From a virus (Duplodnaviria > Heunggongvirae > Uroviricota > Caudoviricetes): 64,000 nt of DNA. The notes below the pieces were generated by a model. The model did no database searches and had not been told where the DNA came from. It worked only from the letters and a program-made list of their open reading frames with translations. Position 1 is the first letter of the stretch, and each line of letters opens with the position of its first letter. This document shows positions 4,666 through 62,947 of the stretch, one piece after another. The stretch lies in IMG/VR virus record IMGVR_UViG_3300030294_000003; one strand, written 5' to 3'. The position numbers were made by a program, and so were the translations under genes.

Positions 4666-4716
4666 CATATTTGATTTTGATATTAAAATGCTAATTCGTA
4701 TCTTTGTATTACAATA
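4662..4716 (+). promoter_or_regulatory. promoter cassette P5 (-7 4699-4706)
   Basis: Consensus match. Confidence 0.5.
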
Positions 4717-6198: not shown

Positions 6199-6513
6199 AT
6201 GGAAAAAGAACCAAAAGTATTAATAGATAGAAAAGAGGTTTCAAGGGATGCTTACAAGCAATTTCCTTATGGTAGCTTAATGCCAATCGGTTCAAGAGAC
6301 AGGGCTATGTATGAATCAAGAAAAGAAGCACATTTGCAAGGTGTTATATTCGCTGAACAAAAGTTAACAAATAAAATGTGCGATTTTAGCATATGGTGTG
6401 CAAAGGAATATAATTTTGATGGTGAAAGATTTTATTATGATACCCCAAATTACCCTGATGGAAGAACATTTTTCACTATTGAAGAACTTTTAAATCAGTT
6501 TTTAATACAATAA
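6199..6513 (+). CDS. hypothetical protein
   Basis: 104-aa ORF with cassette P6 upstream. Confidence 0.55.
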   Translation: MEKEPKVLIDRKEVSRDAYKQFPYGSLMPIGSRDRAMYESRKEAHLQGVIFAEQKLTNKMCDFSIWCAKEYNFDGERFYYDTPNYPDGRTFFTIEELLNQFLIQ

Positions 6514-8697: not shown

Positions 8698-8752
8698 TTA
8701 ACATATTCTATTTTGATATATCAATGTTAATGACTATCTTTGCATTACAATT
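8698..8752 (+). promoter_or_regulatory. promoter cassette P10 (-7 8735-8742)
   Basis: Consensus match. Confidence 0.5.
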
Positions 8753-9032: not shown

Positions 9033-9087
9033 TTAACAAATTACATTTTGATATATTAATGTTAAACAGTATCTTTGTATTATAATT
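9033..9087 (+). promoter_or_regulatory. promoter cassette P11 (-7 9070-9077)
   Basis: Consensus match. Confidence 0.55.
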
Positions 9088-9348: not shown

Positions 9349-9693
9349 ATGAAATCAATGAATCTTTGTTCTTATAAGACATCTCAATTTTGTTTAGCAC
9401 TTTTGAGACATGGTAAAAAATCAGATGAAGTACATGAAGAAATATGTTCTAAATTAGGCTTGTACGGTGTTAAATATTTTGGTCATGGTACTGCATACCA
9501 AAAAAGAAAAGTAGAGCATATTTGGCGTTCTATATTGTTTATACTCTATGATTTTACAGAGTTTTCCAATATGACAACGGTTGAACAAAAACAAGAAATT
9601 TCAAATTATTTAGAATTGAAAGTAGATAATAAAAATAATTTTGGTTTGAGTAAAAGTTATAAATCTATTAACAAATTACATTTTGATAATTGA
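9349..9693 (+). CDS. hypothetical protein
   Basis: Start at the internal ATG 9349, which avoids a 40-nt overlap of the track's 9304 start. The protein is 114 aa. Confidence 0.5.
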   Translation: MKSMNLCSYKTSQFCLALLRHGKKSDEVHEEICSKLGLYGVKYFGHGTAYQKRKVEHIWRSILFILYDFTEFSNMTTVEQKQEISNYLELKVDNKNNFGLSKSYKSINKLHFDN

Positions 9694-9722
9694 ATGTTAA
9701 ACCGTATCTTTGTACTATCAAT
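9668..9722 (+). promoter_or_regulatory. promoter cassette P12 (-7 9705-9712)
   Basis: Consensus match. Confidence 0.55.
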
Positions 9723-12310: not shown

Positions 12311-12365
12311 TTAACAAAATTGGTTTGTATATGTCGATGTTAAACCGTATCTTTGCATTATAATA
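12311..12365 (+). promoter_or_regulatory. promoter cassette P16 (-7 12348-12355)
   Basis: Consensus match. Confidence 0.55.
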
Positions 12366-15964: not shown

Positions 15965-16015
15965 TAAATTTCATTTTGATATATTAATGTTAAATAGTAT
16001 CTTTGTATTATCAAT
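15961..16015 (+). promoter_or_regulatory. promoter cassette P20 (-7 15998-16005)
   Basis: Consensus match. Confidence 0.5.
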
Positions 16016-31595: not shown

Positions 31596-32423
31596 ATGAA
31601 AAAAGTATTTTCGATTATTTTTCTAACTGTATTAATGTTTACAATGAACAGTTGCTATCGGGTTTCACCAAATGCAGGTGAAGAGAGTGTGTTAGTGTAT
31701 AAACCTATGATTTTTGGTGATGGTGGGGTTGATACTACTCCTATCCCAACAGGTTCTATTTGGTGTGTTGTAACTACAGATCATTATGAATTTCAGATTA
31801 CACCAACTACCATTACCGAAGATTTTAAGAATATGATTCCATCGGATAATACACCTGTTTCCTTTTCAGTTTATTTGAAAGTCCAAATACAACAAGGTAA
31901 AACACCGTATTTATATCAAAATTTTGGTGCTAAGTGGTATGAACACAGCCTACAGGCAACATTTAGAACGATGGTTAGAGATAAGGCAAGTGCTTTTAAA
32001 ATGTTTGACTTGGCAAGTAAACGAGACATTTCATCTAAATTAGAAAGTGATATTTTCAAAGACTTATCGGCATACGCTAAAAAATTAAATATTCCTGTCA
32101 AAATTCTACAAGTTTCAATCGGTGCAATTACACCACCTGAACAAGTATTAACTGAAACAAAATTAACAGCAGCACAAAATCAAAGTGTATTAACCCAAAA
32201 TGCAAGGGCTACAGCCGAGCTTTCAAGAAAACAAGCCGAAATAAATAAAGCTATTGCTGATAAATCATACCAAAATCAAATGGGTATGAGTGTTAATGAA
32301 TATCTTCACCTAAGGCAACTTGAAATTGAAAAGGAAAAAGTTGAGTTAATTAAAGATCATGATAATGTTACCATTATATTCGGTGGTGGGTCAGGAGTAC
32401 CAATGACATATCCAGTAAAATAA
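31596..32423 (+). CDS. putative lipoprotein with SPFH/band-7-like C-terminal region
   Basis: 275 aa. The N-terminal signal peptide ends in a lipobox (LMFTMNSC). The C-terminal Ala/Gln-rich coiled coil (TAAQNQSVLTQNARATAELSRKQAEINKA) resembles the helical region of HflK/C, stomatin and prohibitin proteins. Cassette P37 is upstream. Confidence 0.45.
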   Translation: MKKVFSIIFLTVLMFTMNSCYRVSPNAGEESVLVYKPMIFGDGGVDTTPIPTGSIWCVVTTDHYEFQITPTTITEDFKNMIPSDNTPVSFSVYLKVQIQQGKTPYLYQNFGAKWYEHSLQATFRTMVRDKASAFKMFDLASKRDISSKLESDIFKDLSAYAKKLNIPVKILQVSIGAITPPEQVLTETKLTAAQNQSVLTQNARATAELSRKQAEINKAIADKSYQNQMGMSVNEYLHLRQLEIEKEKVELIKDHDNVTIIFGGGSGVPMTYPVK

Positions 32424-44027: not shown

Positions 44028-44876
44028 ATGGGAAAAATTAACAGAACACAACTTGAAATTGAAAAACTACTTTTAGAACCTTTTAAAGTTGGTGAGGTAG
44101 TTAGTGTAGACGAACGTTTGGTAGGTAATAGAGGATCTTCCAAAACATCTGCTAAAATTATTGAGATTGATGGTGATGAAGTTGTTTTGGAAGCGTTCGG
44201 TGGTTATAAAGATAAAAAAACGTATAAAGTTCACATATCCAACTTAGGAAAAAGTATTTATTACGTTGGTTATTCCCCGATGGTAAGACCATCATATCGC
44301 TTAGAAACCATTAATTTCTCACTTGAATCAATTGTTTTTGATTGTGGTTTTGATAGACGTGAAAGAAAATTTAAACCAGATGAAAATATTGGTGAAATTA
44401 CTGTACCAGAATTGAATTGGAACCCATATGTAATTCAATCTGATGGTTCAAAATTTTATTATCAACGAGAGTTTGTTTGGACATTGGAGGATAAACAATC
44501 ATTTATTGATTCAATTTATAACAACATATCTTTAGGTAAGGTTATTTTAAGGGAACGTGGTTTTGAATGGAATAGACAACAGGCATTACTTGGAAATACG
44601 GTGTTTGGTTATAAAGATATTGTTGATGGAAAACAACGTTTGAACTGCATTCTATCGTTTTTACAGGATGAATTTCCAGATTCAAAAGGATTTTATTATT
44701 CTGAATTTTCAAAAGCATCCCAAAACCAATTTTTAAATCACCAATTGCTTGGCTATGCAAAATTAGATGAAAACGCATCTGATAAAGATGTTATCGATTG
44801 TTTCCTTAGAACAAACTTTTCAGGAGTACAAATGAGTAAAGAGCACTTAGAGTATATTAAGACTATTAAATTATAA
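44028..44876 (+). CDS. DUF262-like ParB/Srx-fold NTPase domain protein
   Basis: 282 aa. The C-terminal half has YQREFVW followed by IVDGKQRLNCILSF, matching the DUF262 hallmark xQRxxVW and (I/V)DGQQRLT. The N-terminal ~140 aa are unassigned, and no HNH/DUF1524 partner was seen. Confidence 0.55.
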   Translation: MGKINRTQLEIEKLLLEPFKVGEVVSVDERLVGNRGSSKTSAKIIEIDGDEVVLEAFGGYKDKKTYKVHISNLGKSIYYVGYSPMVRPSYRLETINFSLESIVFDCGFDRRERKFKPDENIGEITVPELNWNPYVIQSDGSKFYYQREFVWTLEDKQSFIDSIYNNISLGKVILRERGFEWNRQQALLGNTVFGYKDIVDGKQRLNCILSFLQDEFPDSKGFYYSEFSKASQNQFLNHQLLGYAKLDENASDKDVIDCFLRTNFSGVQMSKEHLEYIKTIKL

Positions 44877-48277: not shown

Positions 48278-48423
48278 AAAAGCTTAATTAATTTGTATAT
48301 TTGAATTATTTATTATATTTTTACAGTCCAATTAATAGATAACCAACACAAAATTGTCTTTATTCCAAAATAATACATAAACAATATAAAAATAACCCCT
48401 TAAATTTGTTTTAATCAATGAAA

Positions 48424-48445
48424 TACCTTACATTTGCAAACTGTT
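48424..48445 (+). promoter_or_regulatory. class-2-like promoter (cttACATTTGcaaa; -7 48429-48436)
   Basis: TACATTTG core lying ~90 nt upstream of the GHKL ATPase start. Confidence 0.3.
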
Positions 48446-48525
48446 TTTTTTAATAACAATCGGTAGGTGATTACAACCATTAAAAACAAAATGGATTTTT
48501 CGCCTATCAAAAAATTTAACTTGAT

Positions 48526-50109
48526 ATGAAAAATTTAAATGTGAAACAAGACTTGAAAGAATTGGTTACGCAAATTGACGTAACTCCAAATGTGAATTTT
48601 TTAACAACATTAAGAAATTCTGGTTATAATAATTATACGGCTATTGCTGATATAATTGATAACTCGTTAGATACAGATGTAAACTCTAAAAACGTTAAGG
48701 TTCAAATTAAGAGAACTAAAGATGATTACGAGTTTATTAAAATTTGTGATGATGGGTGTGGTATGAATATTGAAACTCTTAATGAGGCCTTTAAGCTTGG
48801 TGCGTTAATGGGTAAAAATAAAGAATTTGATCTTGGTTCGTATGGGACTGGGTTAAAGGCAGCGGCTCTATCATTGGGTCGTAAATTTGTTGTTAAAACT
48901 AAAGCGTCAGATGACGATTTTTATATCGCTACATATGATTTGGATGTTATGATAATGACAAATACATTTGAAATTCCTGTTACAATAGGTAGTTGGGAAG
49001 AATATAGTGAATTTAAACGTGAGACTGGAAGTGATATAGGTACAGTTGTGATAGTATCTAAATTAGATAGAATAACAAATGCTAATATTACTGTATTCAA
49101 GGACATATTAAAAGGTAAACTTGGATTGTTTTATAAGTACTTTATTGATGAATTAAATATTAATTTATTTGTTAATAATGAATATATAAAAAGTGTTGAT
49201 CCAATGCTTAGAAATGAACCATATACTACATGTCTAACATCGAATGAAAAATTTGAGTATAATGAGTCTGAATTTAGATTCAGCGTATTTAATATTGAGT
49301 TCGTTAGCCAATCACTTTCAAATGAAGTAAACCGAAGTTCAGCTTATTCTGGGTTGTATGTTTATAGAAACAATCGTTTAGTTGGGAGTAGCTTGGATTT
49401 AGGTATTGTTGGTAAGGTTGGTGATGGTCACTTAAATGGTCTTAGAATTGAACTATTTTGTAGTGGTGATAGTGATAACTTATTTGGCTCAACCTTTAAT
49501 AAGATTATACACGAAAAAGATAAAAATGAAATCGATCAAGGGTTCAGAGATGTATGTAAAGGTAAACTTCGTGGTTATATTAAGACAGTAAAAAACAACG
49601 AAGATTCTAAAACAACCAACGAAAAGATTAGCGATGATGTTAAAAGTGAAATGGCTGAAATAGTCAAATCAATTAACCAAAATCCATTTATTGGAATAAA
49701 AAAGGAACGTGGGAAAAATGAGCAACATAAAGATATTATTCCAGCAACAACAGAAAAAGAAAAGAAGGAACCAGTTGACGATAGGATAAAAAACAAACTT
49801 GCTCCTCGAAAAAGAGAAGATAAATTTGCTGATTATCGGTTTACTAAGCTTGGTGAAAATGGGTTAATCTTTAAATCGGTTAAGGAACACGGACTATATA
49901 TTATAGAGATAAATCAAGAGCATCCATTTTGGATTAGATTTTTAAATAATGCAACTCTCCAAACGAAAGATGTAATTATTAAAATGTTATTTTCGTTAGG
50001 TGTATCTTTAGAAGAAACCGAATATTATAATAACCCTGAAAAGGAAGACTTATTGAATGAGTATTTTATTAAAGTAAGTGAACGACTAAGGAAGTTTATT
50101 ATATATTAA
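48526..50109 (+). CDS. GHKL-superfamily ATPase, MORC-like (HATPase_c_3-type)
   Basis: 527 aa with a Bergerat fold: N-box IADIIDNSLDT, G1 box DDGCGMN, and G2 box GSYGTGLKAAALSLG. The G-x-x-G-x-G-x-K-x6-G pattern is the MORC/paraMORC variant. A Lys-rich linker and a C-terminal domain follow. The gene has its own upstream promoter-like TACATTTG and a downstream intrinsic terminator. Confidence 0.7.
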   Translation: MKNLNVKQDLKELVTQIDVTPNVNFLTTLRNSGYNNYTAIADIIDNSLDTDVNSKNVKVQIKRTKDDYEFIKICDDGCGMNIETLNEAFKLGALMGKNKEFDLGSYGTGLKAAALSLGRKFVVKTKASDDDFYIATYDLDVMIMTNTFEIPVTIGSWEEYSEFKRETGSDIGTVVIVSKLDRITNANITVFKDILKGKLGLFYKYFIDELNINLFVNNEYIKSVDPMLRNEPYTTCLTSNEKFEYNESEFRFSVFNIEFVSQSLSNEVNRSSAYSGLYVYRNNRLVGSSLDLGIVGKVGDGHLNGLRIELFCSGDSDNLFGSTFNKIIHEKDKNEIDQGFRDVCKGKLRGYIKTVKNNEDSKTTNEKISDDVKSEMAEIVKSINQNPFIGIKKERGKNEQHKDIIPATTEKEKKEPVDDRIKNKLAPRKREDKFADYRFTKLGENGLIFKSVKEHGLYIIEINQEHPFWIRFLNNATLQTKDVIIKMLFSLGVSLEETEYYNNPEKEDLLNEYFIKVSERLRKFIIY

Positions 50110-50143
50110 TTAGATTAATGTAGTTTTTCAATTATTACTAATA

Positions 50144-50178
50144 AAAAAACCCATAAGCTAAATACTTGTGGGTTTTTT
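50144..50178 (+). terminator. intrinsic terminator after GHKL ATPase gene
   Basis: AAAAAAACCCATAAG-ctaaata-CTTGTGGGTTTTTT. Confidence 0.65.
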
Positions 50179-50216
50179 ATTAAAATTTGTTAACCAACTT
50201 GTTTATTACTATTTTT

Positions 50217-50240
50217 ATTAGTACATTTGTATCGAATTAA
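50217..50240 (+). promoter_or_regulatory. class-2 promoter (aGTACATTTGTATCGAATTaaaaac; -7 50222-50229)
   Basis: Shares an 18-nt identity with the copy at 53646. Confidence 0.5.
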
Positions 50241-50263: not shown

Positions 50264-50665
50264 ATGGAACAACAATTAATTGATAAAATAAATAAATTAT
50301 GCCCAGAAAATCAGGGTATTTTTATTGAACCATTCGGTTGCGATGGAATAAATGAACCATTAATTTATATTCGGTGGGTTACTGGTGGGATTGGCGGTGG
50401 AGGCTATCACGAAGACGATTATCAACGACGATATGATGGCAACGGTAAACCACAATTTGAAGTATTAAATTTGGTTTTAAAAGAACTGAAACAAAATATA
50501 ACGTTCTCACAATTTAAAGAAATTGAAGAATTAATCATATCAACAGAGAAAGATGAATTTCCTGACTACTATGGTAACTTCGAAGAGTATGGAATTGAAT
50601 ATATTAAATTAAGCCAATTAGAAGCACAAATTAATTATTTTAAAACAATTGAAAATTATGACTGA
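50264..50665 (+). CDS. hypothetical protein
   Basis: 133-aa ORF with a class-2 promoter at 50222. Confidence 0.55.
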   Translation: MEQQLIDKINKLCPENQGIFIEPFGCDGINEPLIYIRWVTGGIGGGGYHEDDYQRRYDGNGKPQFEVLNLVLKELKQNITFSQFKEIEELIISTEKDEFPDYYGNFEEYGIEYIKLSQLEAQINYFKTIENYD

Positions 50666-52704: not shown

Positions 52705-53262
52705 ATGGAATTAAATGAGTTTGGTAGTAAAATCAAGGGTCTTATGGGCTTAAAAGAAAATAAACAAGTAAATGGTTTTGGTTGTGTGATGTTGTATGTC
52801 TACTTTCCAGAATTTAAAGAGTTACAATCTAAAATTGATGAGAAGGATTTATATAATGATGATACAAAGTCATATGGTTTTGAAAAATCGGAACATATTA
52901 CCCTTTTATATGGTCTCCACGAAGAAGTTAAAGATCAACAAGTTAAAGATATTATGAGTAAATTTGATTTTGAAGATGTAGAAATTAAAAATGTTTCTTT
53001 ATTTAAAAATGAAACATTCGAAGTACTAAAATTTGAAGTTTATAAAGAAAAGTATTTATCTAAATGTAATAAGGAACTTTCAAAATTACCTAATACAAAC
53101 GAATATAAAATATTTAATCCTCATTTAACACTGGCGTATTTAAAATTAGGTGAAGGTGATAAATATATTGAAATGTTTAAAGACCTGAAATATGAATTAC
53201 AACCAACAAAAATAGTATATTCAAAAATAGATGGTTCGGAATTAAAAATAAAAATTGATTAA
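52705..53262 (+). CDS. 2H phosphoesterase (LigT/ThpR-like 2',3'-cyclic phosphodiesterase / 2'-5' RNA ligase family)
   Basis: 185 aa with two H-x-T-x motifs in the typical context and spacing (EHITLLYGL and PHLTLAYLK). Confidence 0.65.
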   Translation: MELNEFGSKIKGLMGLKENKQVNGFGCVMLYVYFPEFKELQSKIDEKDLYNDDTKSYGFEKSEHITLLYGLHEEVKDQQVKDIMSKFDFEDVEIKNVSLFKNETFEVLKFEVYKEKYLSKCNKELSKLPNTNEYKIFNPHLTLAYLKLGEGDKYIEMFKDLKYELQPTKIVYSKIDGSELKIKID

Positions 53263-53616: not shown

Positions 53617-53640
53617 AAGAAATTGTTAATCACATATATT

Positions 53641-53662
53641 AATCGTACATTTGTATCGAATT
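53641..53662 (+). promoter_or_regulatory. class-2 promoter (cGTACATTTGTATCGAATTttaaaac; -7 53646-53653)
   Basis: Same 18-mer as the copy at 50222. Confidence 0.5.
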
Positions 53663-53746: not shown

Positions 53747-55879
53747 ATGAAAGAACTAACTAATTTAATGCAAGCACAATTTGATAAGATGTGCGCTACT
53801 GGTAAACTTTTTAGGAGTGAAGTTACTGGTCAAAAAGTTTGGGATGTATATCTTCAAGCTTTTAATCCAGAAGATAATCCTATTTTTCGAGATCCAAATT
53901 CAACAGTTCATAACTGTAATTTCTGTAAAAATTTTGTTCGTAGGTATGGTAATATTGTTGCTATTGGTGATGATAATGAAATTATGTCTATTTGGGGTGT
54001 TGATGCACCTGAAGAGTATAAAAATTCAGCAAACACATTAAATAATTTAATAGCAAATTCTAAAATAGTTGAGGTATTCTTTGAAACATATAATGAATTA
54101 AACTCATTACCTTATGAAAAGAATTGTACTAAAACACAAGCTACATTTAAATTAGGTGTTGAAAAAAATACAAAAAGGTATACGAAAGAGGAGGCTGAAA
54201 TGTTCGGTGTTGTAAAGCCAAATGAAGAAATAACTTTCGACCATTTCAATTTATCTATATCAAAACAATTCGTTGATCAAACTGGTTCTTCAGTTGAAAG
54301 TATAATTGGTAATTATAGAGATTCAAAAAATGTTTTTCAACGTGGGATGGAAGAAATTTCATTAGATACATTGATACTTGTAAAAGATTTAATCAATCAG
54401 GAGTCACTACTTGATGGTAAAACTCATTTATTTAAGGTTGAAAAAATGATCACGTTTAAAACAGAATATGAGTCTAAATCTCAAAAAGAGAAAGATAATT
54501 ATTGCTGGGTGGCTTCATATAATAATCAGCTTGCTAAGTTCCGTAACGAACTGATTGGTGTACTTTGTAGTGAATTGTCTGAGGGTAAGGAACTTAACGA
54601 AGCTTGTAAATCTTGGAATAAACGTGTTGATCCAATTAATTATATGAAAACAACTACCCCTATTACCAAGAAACAAATTGAGGAGGCAAAATTATTTGTA
54701 GAGGAAAATGGATTTGTCGAATCTTTTGATAGAAGGTTTGCTACCATTGATGATATAAAGGCATCCGAAATACTTCACGTTAATATGGGGGATGGATCTA
54801 TTAAAAATGTTTCAATATTCGATAATGTAAAATCTACTTCGACAAGACACAAGAGGAGTGAATTCGATGGTATTGATGAAGTTACAATTGATAAGTTTAT
54901 GTCTGATATTCTACCTAATTGTACCTCTGTGGAAGCCTTTTTGTTAAGTAAACATGAGGGTAATTTGGTTTCACTTACCACTTCAAACAAGTCTGAAAGT
55001 AAGCCTATTTTTAAATGGAATAATAACTACTCTTGGACTTTTAATGGTAATTTAGCAGGTAAATCTCAAATCAAAGAAGCTGTTAAAGGACGTGGTGGAA
55101 ATGTGATTGGTGATGTTAGAATAAGTTTGGCATTCCCTCTAACTACTGATGACTACGATCTTCACGTACAAGATACTGATGGAAACCATATTTATTATTC
55201 AAATGTAAGACAAAAACACAACTCTTCTGGAATGCTAGATTTAGATGCTCAAGGTGTAGACGGTGCTCAAACCCCAGAAAAAAGAGTAGAAAACATAATA
55301 TTTACAGATAAATCAAAAATAAAAAATGGAAATATAAAAATTTGGGTTGAAAATTACTCACAAAGAGGATTAAGAGTTCCATTTGATATTGAAATTGAAA
55401 TTGAGGGTGATATTACAACATTAACATATGATAGGAATCATTCAGGTAATAAAGCTGAGGTCGGTAATATTGTAGTTAAAAATGGTATGTTTGAATTACA
55501 TCCTGATGCTTATATGACTTTAAAGGAAAGTACAAATTTATCAAAAGAAGTTTATGGGTTGGAAACAAATAATTTTCATAAGGTTAACTTAGTATGCCTT
55601 TCACCTAACCATTGGGGTGATAATAATGTTGGTAATAAGCACTATTTATTTATGTTAGATGGTTGTAAATGTCCAACAGATATTAGAAGTTTTCATAATG
55701 AAAACCTATTACCTGAATTGGCTGAACATAGAAAAGTATTGGAGGTACTTGGTGCGACTAATATGATTAAGCCAACAGATAAACAGCTATCAGGTCTTGG
55801 ATTTAATGCCACTGTAAGGGATGAGATAGTAGTTAGACTACAAGGTTCATTTAAAAGAGTTATCAAAATTAAATTTTAA
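53747..55879 (+). CDS. large hypothetical protein (710 aa), function unknown
   Basis: The longest ORF in the window, with a clean frame. A class-2 promoter and a palindromic operator lie upstream. I could identify no catalytic motif. Confidence 0.7.
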   Translation: MKELTNLMQAQFDKMCATGKLFRSEVTGQKVWDVYLQAFNPEDNPIFRDPNSTVHNCNFCKNFVRRYGNIVAIGDDNEIMSIWGVDAPEEYKNSANTLNNLIANSKIVEVFFETYNELNSLPYEKNCTKTQATFKLGVEKNTKRYTKEEAEMFGVVKPNEEITFDHFNLSISKQFVDQTGSSVESIIGNYRDSKNVFQRGMEEISLDTLILVKDLINQESLLDGKTHLFKVEKMITFKTEYESKSQKEKDNYCWVASYNNQLAKFRNELIGVLCSELSEGKELNEACKSWNKRVDPINYMKTTTPITKKQIEEAKLFVEENGFVESFDRRFATIDDIKASEILHVNMGDGSIKNVSIFDNVKSTSTRHKRSEFDGIDEVTIDKFMSDILPNCTSVEAFLLSKHEGNLVSLTTSNKSESKPIFKWNNNYSWTFNGNLAGKSQIKEAVKGRGGNVIGDVRISLAFPLTTDDYDLHVQDTDGNHIYYSNVRQKHNSSGMLDLDAQGVDGAQTPEKRVENIIFTDKSKIKNGNIKIWVENYSQRGLRVPFDIEIEIEGDITTLTYDRNHSGNKAEVGNIVVKNGMFELHPDAYMTLKESTNLSKEVYGLETNNFHKVNLVCLSPNHWGDNNVGNKHYLFMLDGCKCPTDIRSFHNENLLPELAEHRKVLEVLGATNMIKPTDKQLSGLGFNATVRDEIVVRLQGSFKRVIKIKF

Positions 55880-59687: not shown

Positions 59688-60719
59688 ATGAAAAAACTTT
59701 GCAAATTCTCGGACATAGGTCAATTTAGGGAAATTTATTCAACAATTAAACATAGAACGCAATACATTGGTAAGGATGAAAATGGGGACTGTATGTATGA
59801 TACAACAATTCCTCTTCCAATTATCAAAGTTTCAGGTACAATAAAAATTGATGGAACAAACGGAGGGATTTCAATGAATAAAAATGGTGAAATCTGGGCT
59901 CAATCAAAAGACAATATATTGACTTTAAAGAATGATAATTATAATTTTGCTTTCACGTTAGAATCAAAAAAAGATGTTTTTAAAGATCTACTAAATAAAA
60001 TTGATTTCAAAGGATATGATTACATAACTATTTTTGGTGAATTTGCAGGAAAAGGGATACAGGCTGGAATGGCCGTATGTCAGCTTCCAAGAATATTTGT
60101 TATATATGACATTAAGCGATCATATGAAGATAATTCAAAAGGTGATAATAAATATGCGCCAATAGATCAAATTAAACTATTGCGTTCACCTGAAAATGAT
60201 ATTTATAACATATATGACTTCCCAACGTTTGAAGTTGAAATTGATTTTAACGAGCCTCAGGCAGCTTTAGATAAACTAACTGAAATAACTACCCAAGTTG
60301 GTATTAAATGCCCATTTGGTGACGCTATGGGTGTTGAAGGTAGGGGAGAAGGCATAGTTTACACTTTCTTTACTGAAACTGGTGAAAAACTTAGGTTTAA
60401 AGTAAAAGCCGAAAAAAGTAAAATTTCAAAAACGAAGGAATTGGTTGCAATCGATATAGATAGAATGAATTCAATTAATGAATTTATTGAGTATGCTGTT
60501 ACTGAAAATAGATTAAACCAAGGGCTTGAAAAAATATACGGTAACGGAGTTTTGTTTATTGAGAAGATGGGTGATTTCTTGAGATGGTTAGCTAATGATA
60601 TTATTAAAGAAGAAACAGATGTTTTGATTGGGAATAATTTGGAACCAAAAGCCGTTACAGGTGGTATATCAAAAAAAGGTAGAGATTGGTTGTTGGCTAA
60701 AATAAATAATTTCGAATAG
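59688..60719 (+). CDS. ATP-dependent RNA ligase, Rnl2-like nucleotidyltransferase
   Basis: 343 aa with the covalent nucleotidyltransferase motifs. Motif I is KIDGTN (compare Rnl2 KIHGTN). Motif III is IFGEFAG. Motif IV is EGIVY. Motif V is RFKVKAEK (KxK). Confidence 0.7.
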   Translation: MKKLCKFSDIGQFREIYSTIKHRTQYIGKDENGDCMYDTTIPLPIIKVSGTIKIDGTNGGISMNKNGEIWAQSKDNILTLKNDNYNFAFTLESKKDVFKDLLNKIDFKGYDYITIFGEFAGKGIQAGMAVCQLPRIFVIYDIKRSYEDNSKGDNKYAPIDQIKLLRSPENDIYNIYDFPTFEVEIDFNEPQAALDKLTEITTQVGIKCPFGDAMGVEGRGEGIVYTFFTETGEKLRFKVKAEKSKISKTKELVAIDIDRMNSINEFIEYAVTENRLNQGLEKIYGNGVLFIEKMGDFLRWLANDIIKEETDVLIGNNLEPKAVTGGISKKGRDWLLAKINNFE

Positions 60720-61526: not shown

Positions 61527-62228
61527 ATGTTTCAAAGCCTATTATTACACATCCCCCATTCAAGTACTTACATTCCAGATTCTTTTGGAAATATTAATGA
61601 CTACACATTAATGGGAAATGTTGTTATTCAAACAGATTTATTAGTTGATGACTTATTTTACCACCCAGTAACTACAAATGTTAAAACATTAAAATTTATT
61701 TATAGTCGGTTTTATTGTGATGTGGAAAGATATTGGGATGACAAAAAAGAACCAATGTCACTAATTGGACAGGGTGTATATTATAAACAATATTCTGATG
61801 GTTCATTAATTAATAGAACCGACTCAAAGGATGATATTAAATTAGTTTACAATGAGCATCACTCAAAATTAAACTATATTTCCCAAAAACTTATTGCGGA
61901 AAATGGTTCTTGTTTAATCATTGATTGTCATTCTTTTACACCAACGAATGAAAATGAGCCAGATATATGTATTGGGGTTAATTATGATAAAAATGACCCA
62001 GGTCCTGAAACATTATGGTCTATTATAAATCATTTTATTGATAATGGGTATAAATTTAAGATAAATTATCCGTTTTCAGGATCAATATATCCATCAAAAT
62101 ATTTAAATAAAAACTTAAAATCTATTATGATTGAAGTAAATAAAAATATTTATTTGGGTAATGAGATTAAGTTTTCGAAATTAAAAAATACAATAAACGA
62201 ATTATATCATAAATTGTTAAAATATTAA
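61527..62228 (+). CDS. putative Zn-dependent amidohydrolase (N-formylglutamate amidohydrolase / AstE-AspA-like fold)
   Basis: 233 aa with LLHIPHSSTYIP, CDVERY (compare DxNR) and IDCHSF (compare DLHS), arranged as in FGase-family proteins. The assignment is tentative. Confidence 0.35.
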   Translation: MFQSLLLHIPHSSTYIPDSFGNINDYTLMGNVVIQTDLLVDDLFYHPVTTNVKTLKFIYSRFYCDVERYWDDKKEPMSLIGQGVYYKQYSDGSLINRTDSKDDIKLVYNEHHSKLNYISQKLIAENGSCLIIDCHSFTPTNENEPDICIGVNYDKNDPGPETLWSIINHFIDNGYKFKINYPFSGSIYPSKYLNKNLKSIMIEVNKNIYLGNEIKFSKLKNTINELYHKLLKY

Positions 62229-62947
62229 TGAAAAATAAACTTTCAATTGTTGCAATTTCCGACCTTCACGGGTATCTACCTGAAATAACCGAAGAAGCTG
62301 ATATAATGATCATCGGTGGGGATATTTCTCCTTTAAATATTCAACGTAATAAACCTAAAACGAAAATTTGGCTTGAAACAACGTTTCTCGAATGGGTCAA
62401 TAATTTACCAGTTAAGAAAGTATTCCTTGTGGCTGGTAATCATGATTTTGCGTTAGAGGGTTTATCTGATACTGAAAAATATTTTTTTGAAAAATTATTT
62501 GGCGGAAAACTTAAATATTTAGAAAACGAAACATTTAACCACGTTGATGATAACGGTTGTTCTTGGGTGATTTTTGGAACGCCTTATTGTCACATATTTA
62601 GTTCTGGTTGGGTATTTATGATACCAGATGATAATATGTATTTCAAATTTCTGAAAATTCCAGATGAAGTTGATATAATTATTTCTCATGACCCGCCTTA
62701 TGGTGTTGGTGAAGTTGATGTTATTTTGGAACAATATAATTTAAATGAACCAATCACGCATATTGGAAATAAACCTTTAGCAAAAAGATTGCAACAAATC
62801 AAATATAAATTTCTATGCTGTGGTCATATACATAGTGGTAGCCATATACCATATGAATTTAATGGTGGAAAATGTGTAAACGTTTCGATCAAAGATGAAG
62901 ATTACCAACCAATCTATCATCCATTTTATTATACATTAGAAAAATGA
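62228..62947 (+). CDS. calcineurin-like metallophosphoesterase
   Basis: 239 aa with the MPP motifs ISDLHG, GGD, VAGNHD, SHDPP and GHIHSG. Confidence 0.75.
   Translation: MKNKLSIVAISDLHGYLPEITEEADIMIIGGDISPLNIQRNKPKTKIWLETTFLEWVNNLPVKKVFLVAGNHDFALEGLSDTEKYFFEKLFGGKLKYLENETFNHVDDNGCSWVIFGTPYCHIFSSGWVFMIPDDNMYFKFLKIPDEVDIIISHDPPYGVGEVDVILEQYNLNEPITHIGNKPLAKRLQQIKYKFLCCGHIHSGSHIPYEFNGGKCVNVSIKDEDYQPIYHPFYYTLEK

What the first reader, a model, noticed from the sequence alone, without database searches (positions are those of the whole stretch)
48278..50180. Stand-alone MORC-like GHKL ATPase cassette in a phage early region
ORF 48526-50109 (527 aa) has a complete Bergerat ATP-binding fold (N-box IADIIDNSLDT, G1 DDGCGMN, G2 GSYGTGLKAAALSLG). 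The G-x-x-G-x-G-x-K-x6-G spacing is typical of MORC/paraMORC-type ATPases rather than GyrB, Hsp90 or MutL. In bacteria these ATPases are mostly known as components of restriction-like defence systems, and one encoded alone in a phage is unusual. The gene is insulated: 245 bp of ORF-free AT-rich DNA with its own TACATTTG promoter lies upstream and a clean intrinsic terminator (50144-50178) downstream. The C-terminal ~150 aa after a Lys-rich linker have no motif I recognise. Candidate roles are a phage-encoded exclusion or defence factor against competing phages, a DNA-compaction or host-chromatin remodelling factor, or an anti-defence decoy.
Basis: partly seen in the sequence, partly recalled or inferred. 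Interest (0 to 1): 0.7.

Follow-up and report, generated by a model that had tools for sequence, protein, structure and literature searches.

The report
Stand-alone MORC-type ATPase in a phage
A large phage of Bacteroidota carries, as a self-contained early gene, a lone ATP-driven clamp protein of the MORC family (relatives silence foreign DNA in eukaryotes and sit in bacterial restriction-like operons); it belongs to an undescribed, mostly phage-borne family whose biological role is still unknown.

Summary
ORF 48526-50109 (527 aa) has all four invariant Bergerat motifs, passes Pfam HATPase_c_3, and has its own Bacteroidota-type promoter (48406-48436) and a hairpin/U-tract terminator (50144-50178).

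The MORC-like reading is supported. MORC3/4/2 are the best sequence and structure matches among solved proteins. The MORC-defining S5 motif GhXhhpXXRhl is present (G276-V286, 56/56 relatives). It is not GyrB, MutL, Hsp90, rIIA or a true MzaB.

New findings:
- It belongs to an unannotated family: at least 226 clusters share a family-specific 3-strand/3-helix C-terminal module with an invariant N-x-x-H.
- Across 36 loci no neighbouring gene recurs, so it really works alone.
- A phage clade is distinct from a cellular clade. The cellular copies are GC-poor lone insertions among housekeeping genes.

Most likely mechanism (inferred): a C-terminally dimerised, ATP-gated clamp acting on DNA, used in phage-host or phage-phage conflict. 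Its biological role is untested. I rate it a new variant of a known kind, of moderate interest.

The parts
48406..48436 (+). Promoter: -33 TTG (48406-48408), 20-nt spacer, -7 box TACATTTG (48429-48436). Bacteroidota sigma-A type (TTG / TAnnTTTG).
   Evidence: The motif TTG-N19-21-TAnnTTTG occurs 27 times on the + strand, 7 on the - strand and 5.1 expected. Twenty are intergenic just upstream of ORFs (for the 8-mer). The same motif precedes homologs in L005, L010, L015, L018, L019 and L037. The function is inferred from the consensus and was not measured.
48437..48525 (+). 5' leader of about 90 nt, with a modest hairpin and a 12-codon uORF (48491-48529). Neither is conserved.
   Evidence: Fold z = -2.75. 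The leaders of the 63%-identical relatives L019 and L037 are unrelated. No Rfam family matches.
48526..50109 (+). CDS of the 527-aa stand-alone MORC-family GHKL ATPase (stop codon 50107-50109).
48559..49071 (+). GHKL (Bergerat) ATP-binding domain, aa ~12-182. Motif I is D42-x-x-D45-N46, motif II is D75-x-G77-x-G79, motif III is G104-x-x-G107-x-G109-x-K111, motif IV is G172-T173.
   Evidence: Pfam HATPase_c_3 E = 7.5e-20 over res 37-167. These motif residues are invariant in 56/56, except T173 (55/56). pLDDT is mostly 83-96.
49087..49530 (+). S5-fold transducer domain, aa ~188-335. It carries the MORC signature G276-LYVYRNNRLV-286 and invariant R307, E309, K326 and E330.
   Evidence: The motif is defined in PMC2292703 and is present in 56/56. 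Foldseek alignments of ~400 columns to MORC3/4/2 ATPase modules, a span longer than the ~180-residue GHKL domain. That K326 is the ATP-contacting basic residue is inferred.
49537..49827 (+). Helical arm (aa 338-384) followed by a disordered Lys/Arg-rich linker (aa 385-434; 15 K+R in 50 residues) that ends in a conserved R-K-R.
   Evidence: AF2 secondary structure, with pLDDT below 50 for residues 398-429. Composition. R430 is conserved in at least 90% of sequences.
49828..50106 (+). Family-specific C-terminal module (aa 435-527): three strands plus three helices, with invariant N463 and H466 (I-N-x-x-H-P-F-W). Proposed to be a dimerisation or partner-binding domain.
50144..50178 (+). Intrinsic terminator: A-tract, stem CCCATAAG/CTTGTGGG (50150-50157 / 50165-50172), 7-nt loop, T6 tail.
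   Evidence: -17.2 kcal/mol, z = -4.46, and 0 of 200 shuffles fold as well. Sequence.
50199..50229 (+). Promoter of the next gene (ORF 50264-50665), of the same TACATTTG class. It marks the downstream boundary of the cassette.

Best explanation
The gene encodes a catalytically competent MORC-family GHKL+S5 ATPase. It belongs to a previously undescribed, largely phage-borne clade that works without the helicase, nuclease or methylase partners of other prokaryotic MORCs.

Proposed mechanism:
- Two protomers are held together by the family-specific C-terminal module.
- ATP binding closes the N-terminal GHKL gates, as in MORC, MutL and Hsp90.
- The helical arm and the Lys/Arg-rich linker hold nucleic acid, so the dimer acts as an ATP-gated DNA clamp or compactor.

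The gene is transcribed early from a host-type (Bacteroidota sigma-A) promoter as a monocistronic, horizontally mobile cassette. It most likely serves in genome conflict, by silencing or excluding competing or host DNA in the infected cell, rather than in core replication.

Shown: the ORF, the motifs, the fold, the family, the stand-alone context, the promoter and terminator signals, and the signatures of horizontal mobility.
Inferred: dimerisation through the C-terminal domain, DNA as the substrate, and the conflict role.
For: Identity:
- Pfam HATPase_c_3, 71.8 bits.
- PDB phmmer hits with E below 0.01 are all MORC4/3/2.
- Foldseek top 14 hits are all MORC, E ~1e-16 over ~400 columns.
- The MORC S5 motif is in 56/56 members, and all ATP-binding residues plus K326 are invariant. 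This argues for an active enzyme.

Architecture:
- AF2 pLDDT 84, with a helical arm, a disordered basic linker and a confident C-terminal module.
- The C-terminal module has weak similarity to the HtpG dimerisation domain.

Stand-alone:
- Contexts all differ.
- Clustering across 36 loci finds no shared neighbour.

Accessory and mobile:
- Absent from the related Cellulophaga phages and from the 462-kb uncultured phage that share the neighbouring 710-aa gene.
- Chromosomal copies are 9-11% lower in GC than their flanks and sit among suc/ser genes or next to ffh.
- Two phage copies also deviate in GC.

Conflict context:
- The nearest partnered relatives are MZA-type operon ATPases.
- The window neighbourhood holds a GmrSD_N/DUF262 protein and RNA-ligase/phosphoesterase genes. 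RNA repair is listed as a counter-defence theme in PMC7824862.

Early expression:
- Host-type promoter class.
Against: - There is no experimental data. No effector domain was recognised, so it is unclear how a lone clamp would harm a competitor.
- The general-base position of motif I is Asp (D42), not the Glu of MORC and MutL, so the hydrolysis rate is uncertain.
- The S5 domain profile alone does not retrieve MORCs by sequence.
- DNA binding is inferred only from the basic linker and by analogy with MORCs.
- A conflict role is inferred from distribution, not from any phenotype.
Confidence: 0.55

Rival explanations
1. Anti-defence decoy or poison subunit. The phage protein mimics the ATPase of host MORC/MZA-type restriction-like systems. 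It heterodimerises with that ATPase, or titrates its partners, and so disables host immunity.
For: - The best PADLOC and NCBIfam matches are MzaB.
- The gene has an early, host-type promoter.
- One homolog lies 2 kb from an anti-Gabija Gad2 gene.
Against: - All catalytic residues are invariant across the family, which a passive decoy would not need.
- A sister clade sits as lone genes in bacterial chromosomes outside recognisable prophages, where an anti-defence gene is not expected.
- The C-terminus shows no significant similarity to that of MzaB-type proteins.
- It is not known whether the host carries an MZA system.
Confidence: 0.15
2. Hsp90-like protein chaperone. The N-M-C architecture with a charged linker and a C-terminal dimerisation domain works on proteins (for example virion or replisome assembly), not on DNA.
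For: - Foldseek aligns 520-570 columns to full-length Hsp90/TRAP1/GRP94 at E 1e-14 to 1e-12.
- Some family members weakly hit HtpG/HSP90 NCBIfam models.
- A DnaJ gene lies near the homolog in L015.
Against: - The MORC-specific S5 motif and the motif-III lysine are present.
- Sequence searches find MORC and MutL and never Hsp90 for this protein.
- The Hsp90 alignments have rmsd 13-19 Å.
- The gene's patchy, mobile distribution is unlike a core assembly chaperone.
Confidence: 0.1
3. DNA-metabolism accessory of the phage's own genome: a MutL-like or topoisomerase-like helper for replication, recombination, repair or packaging.
For: - It has the GHKL+S5 module shared with MutL and type II topoisomerase ATPases.
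- One homolog sits beside the gp23/portal/prohead-protease block.
Against: - No Toprim, GyrA-like or MutL_C partner or domain was found.
- GyrB and MutL are absent from the top 50 structural matches.
- Its position varies in every phage.
- It is absent from the closest cultured relatives.
- The NCBIfam mutl score is 24.7 bits against a cutoff of 180.
Confidence: 0.1
4. A divergent rIIA-type protein (T4 rIIA has an N-terminal GHKL domain) that protects against prophage-encoded exclusion systems.
For: - The jumbo-phage review notes the GHKL domain in rIIA (PMC7824862).
- rIIA models appear among the BFVD matches at E 1e-10 to 1e-8.
- The phage lineage is T4-like: T4_Y16D in the window, and gp23/portal next to homologs.
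Against: - No PHROGs rIIA family is hit even at E <= 1.
- rIIA matches rank below MORC-type and topoisomerase matches and cover only the ATPase core.
- The protein is 527 aa, whereas the rIIA models listed are 618-823 aa.
- No rIIB-like neighbour is present.
- rIIA does not explain the cellular clade.
Confidence: 0.03

Closest known systems
Prokaryotic MORC family of GHKL ATPases (Iyer, Abhiman and Aravind 2008, PMC2292703)
   Same: It has the four GHKL motifs, an S5-fold transducer, and the family-defining GhXhhpXXRhl motif (GLYVYRNNRLV). Its distribution is patchy and laterally mobile.
   Different: The described prokaryotic MORCs sit in RM-like operons with SFII helicases, nucleases and methylases. 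This one is always alone, is mostly phage-borne, and has its own C-terminal module.
[not shown]
   Same: It is the best profile match. It shares about 28% identity over the GHKL+S5 core (res 25-379), the Asp at the motif-I general-base position, and the MORC S5 motif.
   Different: It scores 97 bits against an equivalog cutoff of 850. Only profile positions 3-282 of 480 match. None of the four operon partners is present. The C-termini are not demonstrably homologous (hhalign E 0.03).
Eukaryotic MORC2/3/4 ATPase modules (PDB 5of9, 6o1e, 7k7t, 9cdj)
   Same: They are the closest solved structures and sequences, with the same motif-III G-x-x-G-x-G-x-K-x6-G. By analogy, the phage protein may share their ATP-driven N-terminal dimerisation and DNA clamping.
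   Different: It has no CW zinc finger, chromo-like domain or long coiled-coil insertions. Identity is 12-16%. It has Asp instead of the catalytic Glu, and a different C-terminal domain.
Hsp90/HtpG
   Same: It has a three-part N (GHKL), middle and C (dimerisation-like) layout with a charged linker. The C-terminal module shows weak fold similarity to the HtpG CTD.
   Different: The middle domain carries MORC-type S5 signatures. There is no sequence-level Hsp90 match.
T4 rIIA and phage type II topoisomerase large subunits (other phage GHKL proteins)
   Same: They are phage-encoded GHKL ATPases, and rIIA is implicated in conflict with prophage exclusion systems.
   Different: Only the ATPase core is distantly similar (BFVD E ~1e-10). 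There is no Toprim domain, no rIIB partner and no PHROGs match.

Membership tests
GHKL (Bergerat-fold) ATPase superfamily | Four ATP-binding motifs (N-box with Mg-binding Asn; DxGxG; GxxGxG lid; GT) and a Pfam HATPase_c-type match | tested here: met
   N46, D75/G77/G79, G104/G107/G109 and G172 are invariant in 56/56 and T173 is in 55/56. HATPase_c_3 scores 71.8 bits against cutoff 25, and HATPase_c 27.7 against 26.4.
GHKL (Bergerat-fold) ATPase superfamily | Glutamate general base at the start of motif I (ExxxN) | tested here: not met
   The position is Asp (D42) in all 56 members and also in the MzaB-like proteins P0114 and P0116. This is a conservative substitution, and its effect on catalysis is unknown.
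MORC family (Iyer et al. 2008) | S5-fold domain C-terminal to the GHKL domain | tested here: met
   The AF2 model has an alpha+beta domain at residues 188-335. Foldseek aligns ~400 columns to MORC3/4/2 ATPase modules, a span longer than the ~180-residue GHKL domain. The S5 profile alone finds no MORC by sequence.
MORC family (Iyer et al. 2008) | GhXhhpXXRhl motif in the S5 domain, which separates MORCs from paraMORCs and other GHKLs | tested here: met
   G276-L-Y-V-Y-R-N-N-R-L-V286. A regular expression for the motif matches 56/56 members, and G276, R281 and R284 are invariant. The definition was read. phmmer aligns the motif to MORC4 'GIMMYHNNRLI'.
MORC family (Iyer et al. 2008) | Conserved basic residue in S5 that reaches the ATP gamma-phosphate | tested here: inconclusive
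   K326 (with E330) is invariant. Its contact with the nucleotide could not be checked, because no coordinates or dimer model were available.
MORC family (Iyer et al. 2008) | Operon association with an SFII helicase, nuclease or methylase (typical of about 70% of prokaryotic MORCs; contextual rather than strictly defining) | tested here: not met
   No such neighbour lies within about 7.8 kb upstream or 10 kb downstream in the window phage. No neighbour recurs across the 36 loci.
MzaB (MZA system ATPase) | NCBIfam NF041932 equivalog score of at least 850 bits over the full-length model | tested here: not met
   97 bits, with profile positions 3-282 of 480 matched. Ten divergent family members score 0-131 bits.
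[not shown]
   These partners are present next to P0114. They are absent from the window's larger ORFs and from all family loci.
GyrB / type IIA topoisomerase ATPase | Toprim domain or partner cleavage subunit, and GyrB-type transducer | tested here: not met
   There is no Toprim or DNA_topoisoIV hit in the protein or its neighbours. No GyrB appears in the top 50 PDB matches. Phage topoisomerase subunits match only at E ~1e-11 in BFVD.
MutL | MutL transducer plus the MutL_C dimerisation/endonuclease domain, and TIGR00585 at 180 bits or more | tested here: not met
   TIGR00585 scores 24.7 bits over residues 40-90 only. The only MutL-family hit is PMS2 at E 0.44, and there is no MutL_C match.
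Hsp90/HtpG | Hsp90 middle domain with catalytic Arg, C-terminal dimerisation domain, and HtpG model match | tested here: inconclusive
   [not shown]
T4 rIIA | rIIA PHROG/Pfam match, size of about 600-800 aa, and an rIIB partner | tested here: not met
   No PHROGs hit at E <= 0.1. BFVD rIIA models match at 1e-10 to 1e-8 over the ATPase core only. The PHROGs scans of neighbours returned no rIIB family.

The most novel reading that the evidence does not exclude
This family may be an autonomous viral and bacterial MORC that, like eukaryotic MORCs, topologically entraps and compacts DNA to silence it, with no nuclease, helicase or methylase partner. If so, phages would use it early in infection to shut down host or competitor DNA. 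Stand-alone prokaryotic or viral MORCs of this kind, rather than the RM-operon MORCs, would then be the closest functional prototype of eukaryotic MORC-mediated silencing.
Probability: 0.2. Interest if true: 0.8.

Novelty: new variant of a known kind. Interest (0 to 1): 0.5.

Why it matters
Prokaryotic MORC-type ATPases have only been discussed as cogs in multi-gene restriction-like systems, and none has been characterised mechanistically. This family packs the ATPase engine plus a private C-terminal module into one gene, and that gene moves between large phages and bacterial chromosomes. That makes it a simple one-protein system for asking what a MORC engine does on its own: DNA clamping, compaction or silencing.

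It is also a candidate new single-gene player in phage-host or phage-phage conflict in Bacteroidota phages, a group with few characterised accessory genes. If it silences DNA autonomously, it bears on the origin of eukaryotic MORC silencing.

The family has no hit in PHROGs (E <= 0.1) and only three weak matches among GenBank phage records. Its C-terminal module is in no Pfam family.

Tried and rejected
1. Megablast of 5 kb around the gene against GenBank phages found no match. tblastn of the protein found only three weak hits in unannotated faecal contigs.
2. PHROGs had nothing at E <= 0.1, so the rIIA and phage-topoisomerase family assignments were rejected.
3. The C-terminal module had no significant hit against Pfam (27 members scanned) or against PDB sequences with a profile (best E 0.13). 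A word-indexed search with its profile gave only two fragments.
4. hhalign of the C-terminal profile against two MzaB-like proteins aligned the N-x-x-H region at the equivalent place, but only at E ~0.03. MAFFT did not align them. Homology of the C-termini is therefore not claimed.
5. The S5-domain profile against PDB sequences gave only a chance L6 hit.
7. The 5' leader hairpin and uORF are not conserved in relatives and match no Rfam family.
8. The simple terminator scanner missed the 50144-50178 hairpin. Folding confirmed it.
9. The literature searches found no paper on phage MORCs, and MZA appears only in prevalence surveys. One search ('MzaB' by word start) was wasted on unrelated words.
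Full report
1. OBSERVATION

ORF 48526-50109 (+) encodes 527 aa.
- Pfam HATPase_c_3 matches residues 37-167 at E = 7.5e-20, 71.8 bits against a cutoff of 25.
- I aligned 56 full-length relatives at 29-91% identity. D42, D45, N46, D75, G77, G79, G104, G107, G109, K111, G118 and G172 are invariant, and T173 is in 55 of 56. The Bergerat motifs are therefore real and under selection.
- The upstream gap is 248 bp with no ORF of 40 aa or more.
- 'TACATTTG' is not a stray word. It is the -7 box of TTG-N19-21-TAnnTTTG, which occurs 27 times on the + strand, against 7 on the - strand and 5.1 expected. Twenty of the 27 are intergenic, 24-94 nt upstream of an ORF (the 8-mer alone occurs 15 times against 6.7 expected).
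- From established knowledge, TTTG / TAnnTTTG is the Bacteroidota sigma-A promoter consensus. This matches the best cultured relatives of the neighbouring 710-aa gene, which are Cellulophaga phages at 50-56% identity.
- The downstream hairpin with its U-tract (50144-50178) folds at -17.2 kcal/mol, z = -4.5.
- A second promoter of the same class at 50199-50229 starts the next gene. The gene is thus a monocistronic cassette, as claimed.

2. WHAT KIND OF GENOME

The window is 26-30% GC. All 29 ORFs of 150 aa or more are on the + strand, and no tRNA was found. The exact protein occurs on more than 20 metagenomic contigs of up to 263 kb. Neighbours include T4_Y16D, a GmrSD_N/DUF262 protein, Rnl2-like and LigT-like RNA ligases and a metallophosphoesterase. 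A 42%-identical homolog lies beside gp23, the T4-type portal and the prohead protease on a contig of up to 355 kb. This is therefore a large T4-like phage, probably infecting Flavobacteriia. The host assignment is an inference.

3. WHICH GHKL FAMILY

- Sequence against the PDB: every hit with E below 0.01 is MORC4, MORC3 or MORC2 (1e-9 to 1e-5). Topo VI-B and PMS2 come in at E above 0.2.
- Structure: the AF2 model has pLDDT 83.9. In Foldseek against the PDB, the first 14 hits are all MORC3/4/2 (E ~1e-16, ~400 aligned columns). Hsp90, TRAP1 and SMCHD1 follow. No GyrB or MutL chain appears in the top 50.
- Signature motif: Iyer et al. 2008 separate MORCs from paraMORCs and other GHKLs by the S5-domain motif GhXhhpXXRhl. 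The phage protein has G276-LYVYRNNRLV-286, and a regular expression for the motif matches 56/56 members.
- Viral models: rIIA and phage topoisomerase subunits match only at about 1e-10 over the core. PHROGs gives nothing.
- One departure: the motif-I general base is Asp (D42), not Glu, throughout the family and also in MzaB-like proteins.

4. RELATION TO DEFENCE-SYSTEM ATPASES

5. THE C-TERMINAL MODULE

After the S5 domain come a helical arm (338-384), a disordered Lys/Arg-rich linker (385-434) and a confident module of three strands and three helices (435-527; pLDDT 91 when modelled alone). N463 and H466 are invariant.
- It matches no Pfam family and no PDB sequence.
- A full HMMER scan of 1.84 billion cluster representatives found 226 proteins with the module at E <= 0.001. 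Among the 150 listed, it is at the extreme C-terminus of 490-600 aa proteins or in fragments. All carriers tested have a MORC/MzaB-like N-terminus, except one odd 711-aa protein. The module is therefore private to this family.
- GHKL clamps are generally constitutive C-terminal dimers, so I read the module as a dimerisation or partner-binding domain. This is an inference.

6. CONTEXT AND DISTRIBUTION

- Seven looked-up contexts are all phage-like and all different. This includes a contig binned as Methanobrevibacter that carries a homing-endonuclease-split IMPDH, a thymidine kinase and T5orf172.
- A profile-guided scan found 19 loci in IMG/VR on contigs of up to 548 kb. It also found 80 loci in GTDB genomes, about 20 of them full length.
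- I clustered all ORFs from 36 loci. Only the ATPase itself is shared, apart from three near-identical phages.
- In real chromosomes the gene is a lone insertion. In the Pseudaquidulcibacter isolate it lies between sucCDAB and serC/serA. In Granulicella it lies beside ffh and a tyrosine recombinase. These copies are 9-11 percentage points lower in GC than their flanks.
- A rough NJ tree separates a phage clade, which includes the window, from a cellular clade. MzaB-type proteins fall outside both.
- The Cellulophaga phages and the 462-kb uncultured phage that share the adjacent 710-aa gene gave no ATPase match.
- The gene is thus an accessory, horizontally mobile, single-gene cassette.

7. MECHANISM

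Shown: an intact ATP-binding engine of MORC type, an S5 transducer with invariant K326, a basic flexible linker, a private C-terminal module, a host-type promoter, and no partner gene.

Inferred: the C-terminal domain dimerises the protein, ATP closes the N-terminal gate, and the basic arm and linker hold DNA, giving an ATP-gated DNA clamp or compactor as in eukaryotic MORCs. The distribution is patchy, mobile and GC-deviant. Relatives are defence-associated, and the local gene content (DUF262, RNA repair) is conflict-related. I therefore favour a role in genome conflict, such as superinfection exclusion or the silencing of host or competitor DNA.

Rivals:
- Decoy against host MORC/MZA systems. 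This is disfavoured by the invariant catalytic residues and by the chromosomal lone copies.
- Hsp90-like chaperone. It has architectural similarity, but the signatures are MORC-type.
- Housekeeping DNA metabolism. There is no partner, and the gene is not conserved among relatives.
- rIIA-like. There is no profile support.

8. NOVELTY

The held literature has nothing on phage-encoded MORCs. The jumbo-phage survey mentions GHKL only for topoisomerase and rIIA. MZA appears only in prevalence surveys. The kind of protein (prokaryotic MORC-type GHKL ATPase) is known. The variant is new: stand-alone, with a private C-terminal module, and forming a phage clade. Its interest is moderate. It offers a clean one-protein system for asking what a MORC engine does alone, but no phenotype or effector is yet evident.

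Noticed in passing
window 4677-4706, 8713-8742, 9048-9077, 9683-9712, 12325-12355, 15976-16005 (and about 14 further intergenic sites): There are nearly identical copies of an early-promoter-like element, TTGATATATTAATGTTAAAnnGTATCTTTG (TTG-N19-21-TAnnTTTG, Bacteroidota sigma-A type), in front of many small ORFs. A second sub-class ends in TACATTTG (36167, 48406, 50199, 53623, 57461). The two sub-classes might mark different regulatory groups.
   Followed up: partly
window 44028-44876 (+): This 282-aa protein has only the GmrSD_N/DUF262 (ParB-like) domain and lacks the DUF1524 HNH nuclease of type IV restriction enzymes (Pfam mark; phrog_1583). It may be another conflict-related gene, 3.6 kb upstream of the ATPase.
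   Followed up: partly
window 52705-53262, 59688-60719, 62228-62947 (+): This looks like an RNA-repair gene set: a LigT/RNA-ligase-like protein (phrog_755), an Rnl2-type RNA ligase (Pfam RNA_ligase; tblastn to RnlB of Salmonella phages) and a metallophosphoesterase. It suggests a counter-measure to host anticodon nucleases.
   Followed up: partly
window 53747-55879 (+): This 710-aa protein belongs to phrog_1735/DUF8224, of unknown function. It is present in 549 GenBank phage records across many host phyla. The best matches are an uncultured 462-kb phage (62%) and Cellulophaga phages phi4:1 and phi17:2 (50-56%). It has its own TACATTTG-class promoter at 53623-53653.
   Followed up: partly
window 31596-32423 (+): A phage-encoded SPFH/Band_7 (stomatin/prohibitin-like) protein, Pfam E = 4e-14.
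   Followed up: no
L022 about 6250-6300 and L023 (IMG/VR contigs of 232 and 252 kb) compared with L025: The ATPase homolog is split into two ORFs in L022 and L023. L022 differs from the otherwise 99.95%-identical L025 by a single 1-nt gap, between motifs II and III; L023 is 98% identical with 5 gap openings. This could be an assembly error, a pseudogene or phase variation. In L025 the ORF also has an N-terminal extension of about 140 aa.
   Followed up: partly
L008 13569-14537 (-): An anti-Gabija Gad2 homolog (Pfam PF26128) lies 2 kb downstream of the ATPase homolog P0105 in a 134-kb phage-like contig.
   Followed up: no
L011 3022-5680 (also L012, L013): An IMPDH gene is split by a NUMOD3 homing-endonuclease ORF, directly downstream of the ATPase homolog. 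The contig is deposited as part of a Methanobrevibacter MAG but has phage-like content (TK, T5orf172), so it is probably mis-binned.
   Followed up: no
window 48462-48508 and 48491-48529 (+): The 5' leader of the ATPase mRNA can form a hairpin (z = -2.75). It also contains a 12-codon uORF whose stop overlaps the main ATG (ATGA). Neither is conserved in the 63%-identical relatives, so both are probably fortuitous.
   Followed up: yes
protein P0161 (711 aa; hit): One representative matches the core of the C-terminal module (profile positions 30-56) in 7 separate stretches and has no NCBIfam hit. It may be a repeat protein built from the beta-strand/N-x-x-H element.
   Followed up: no
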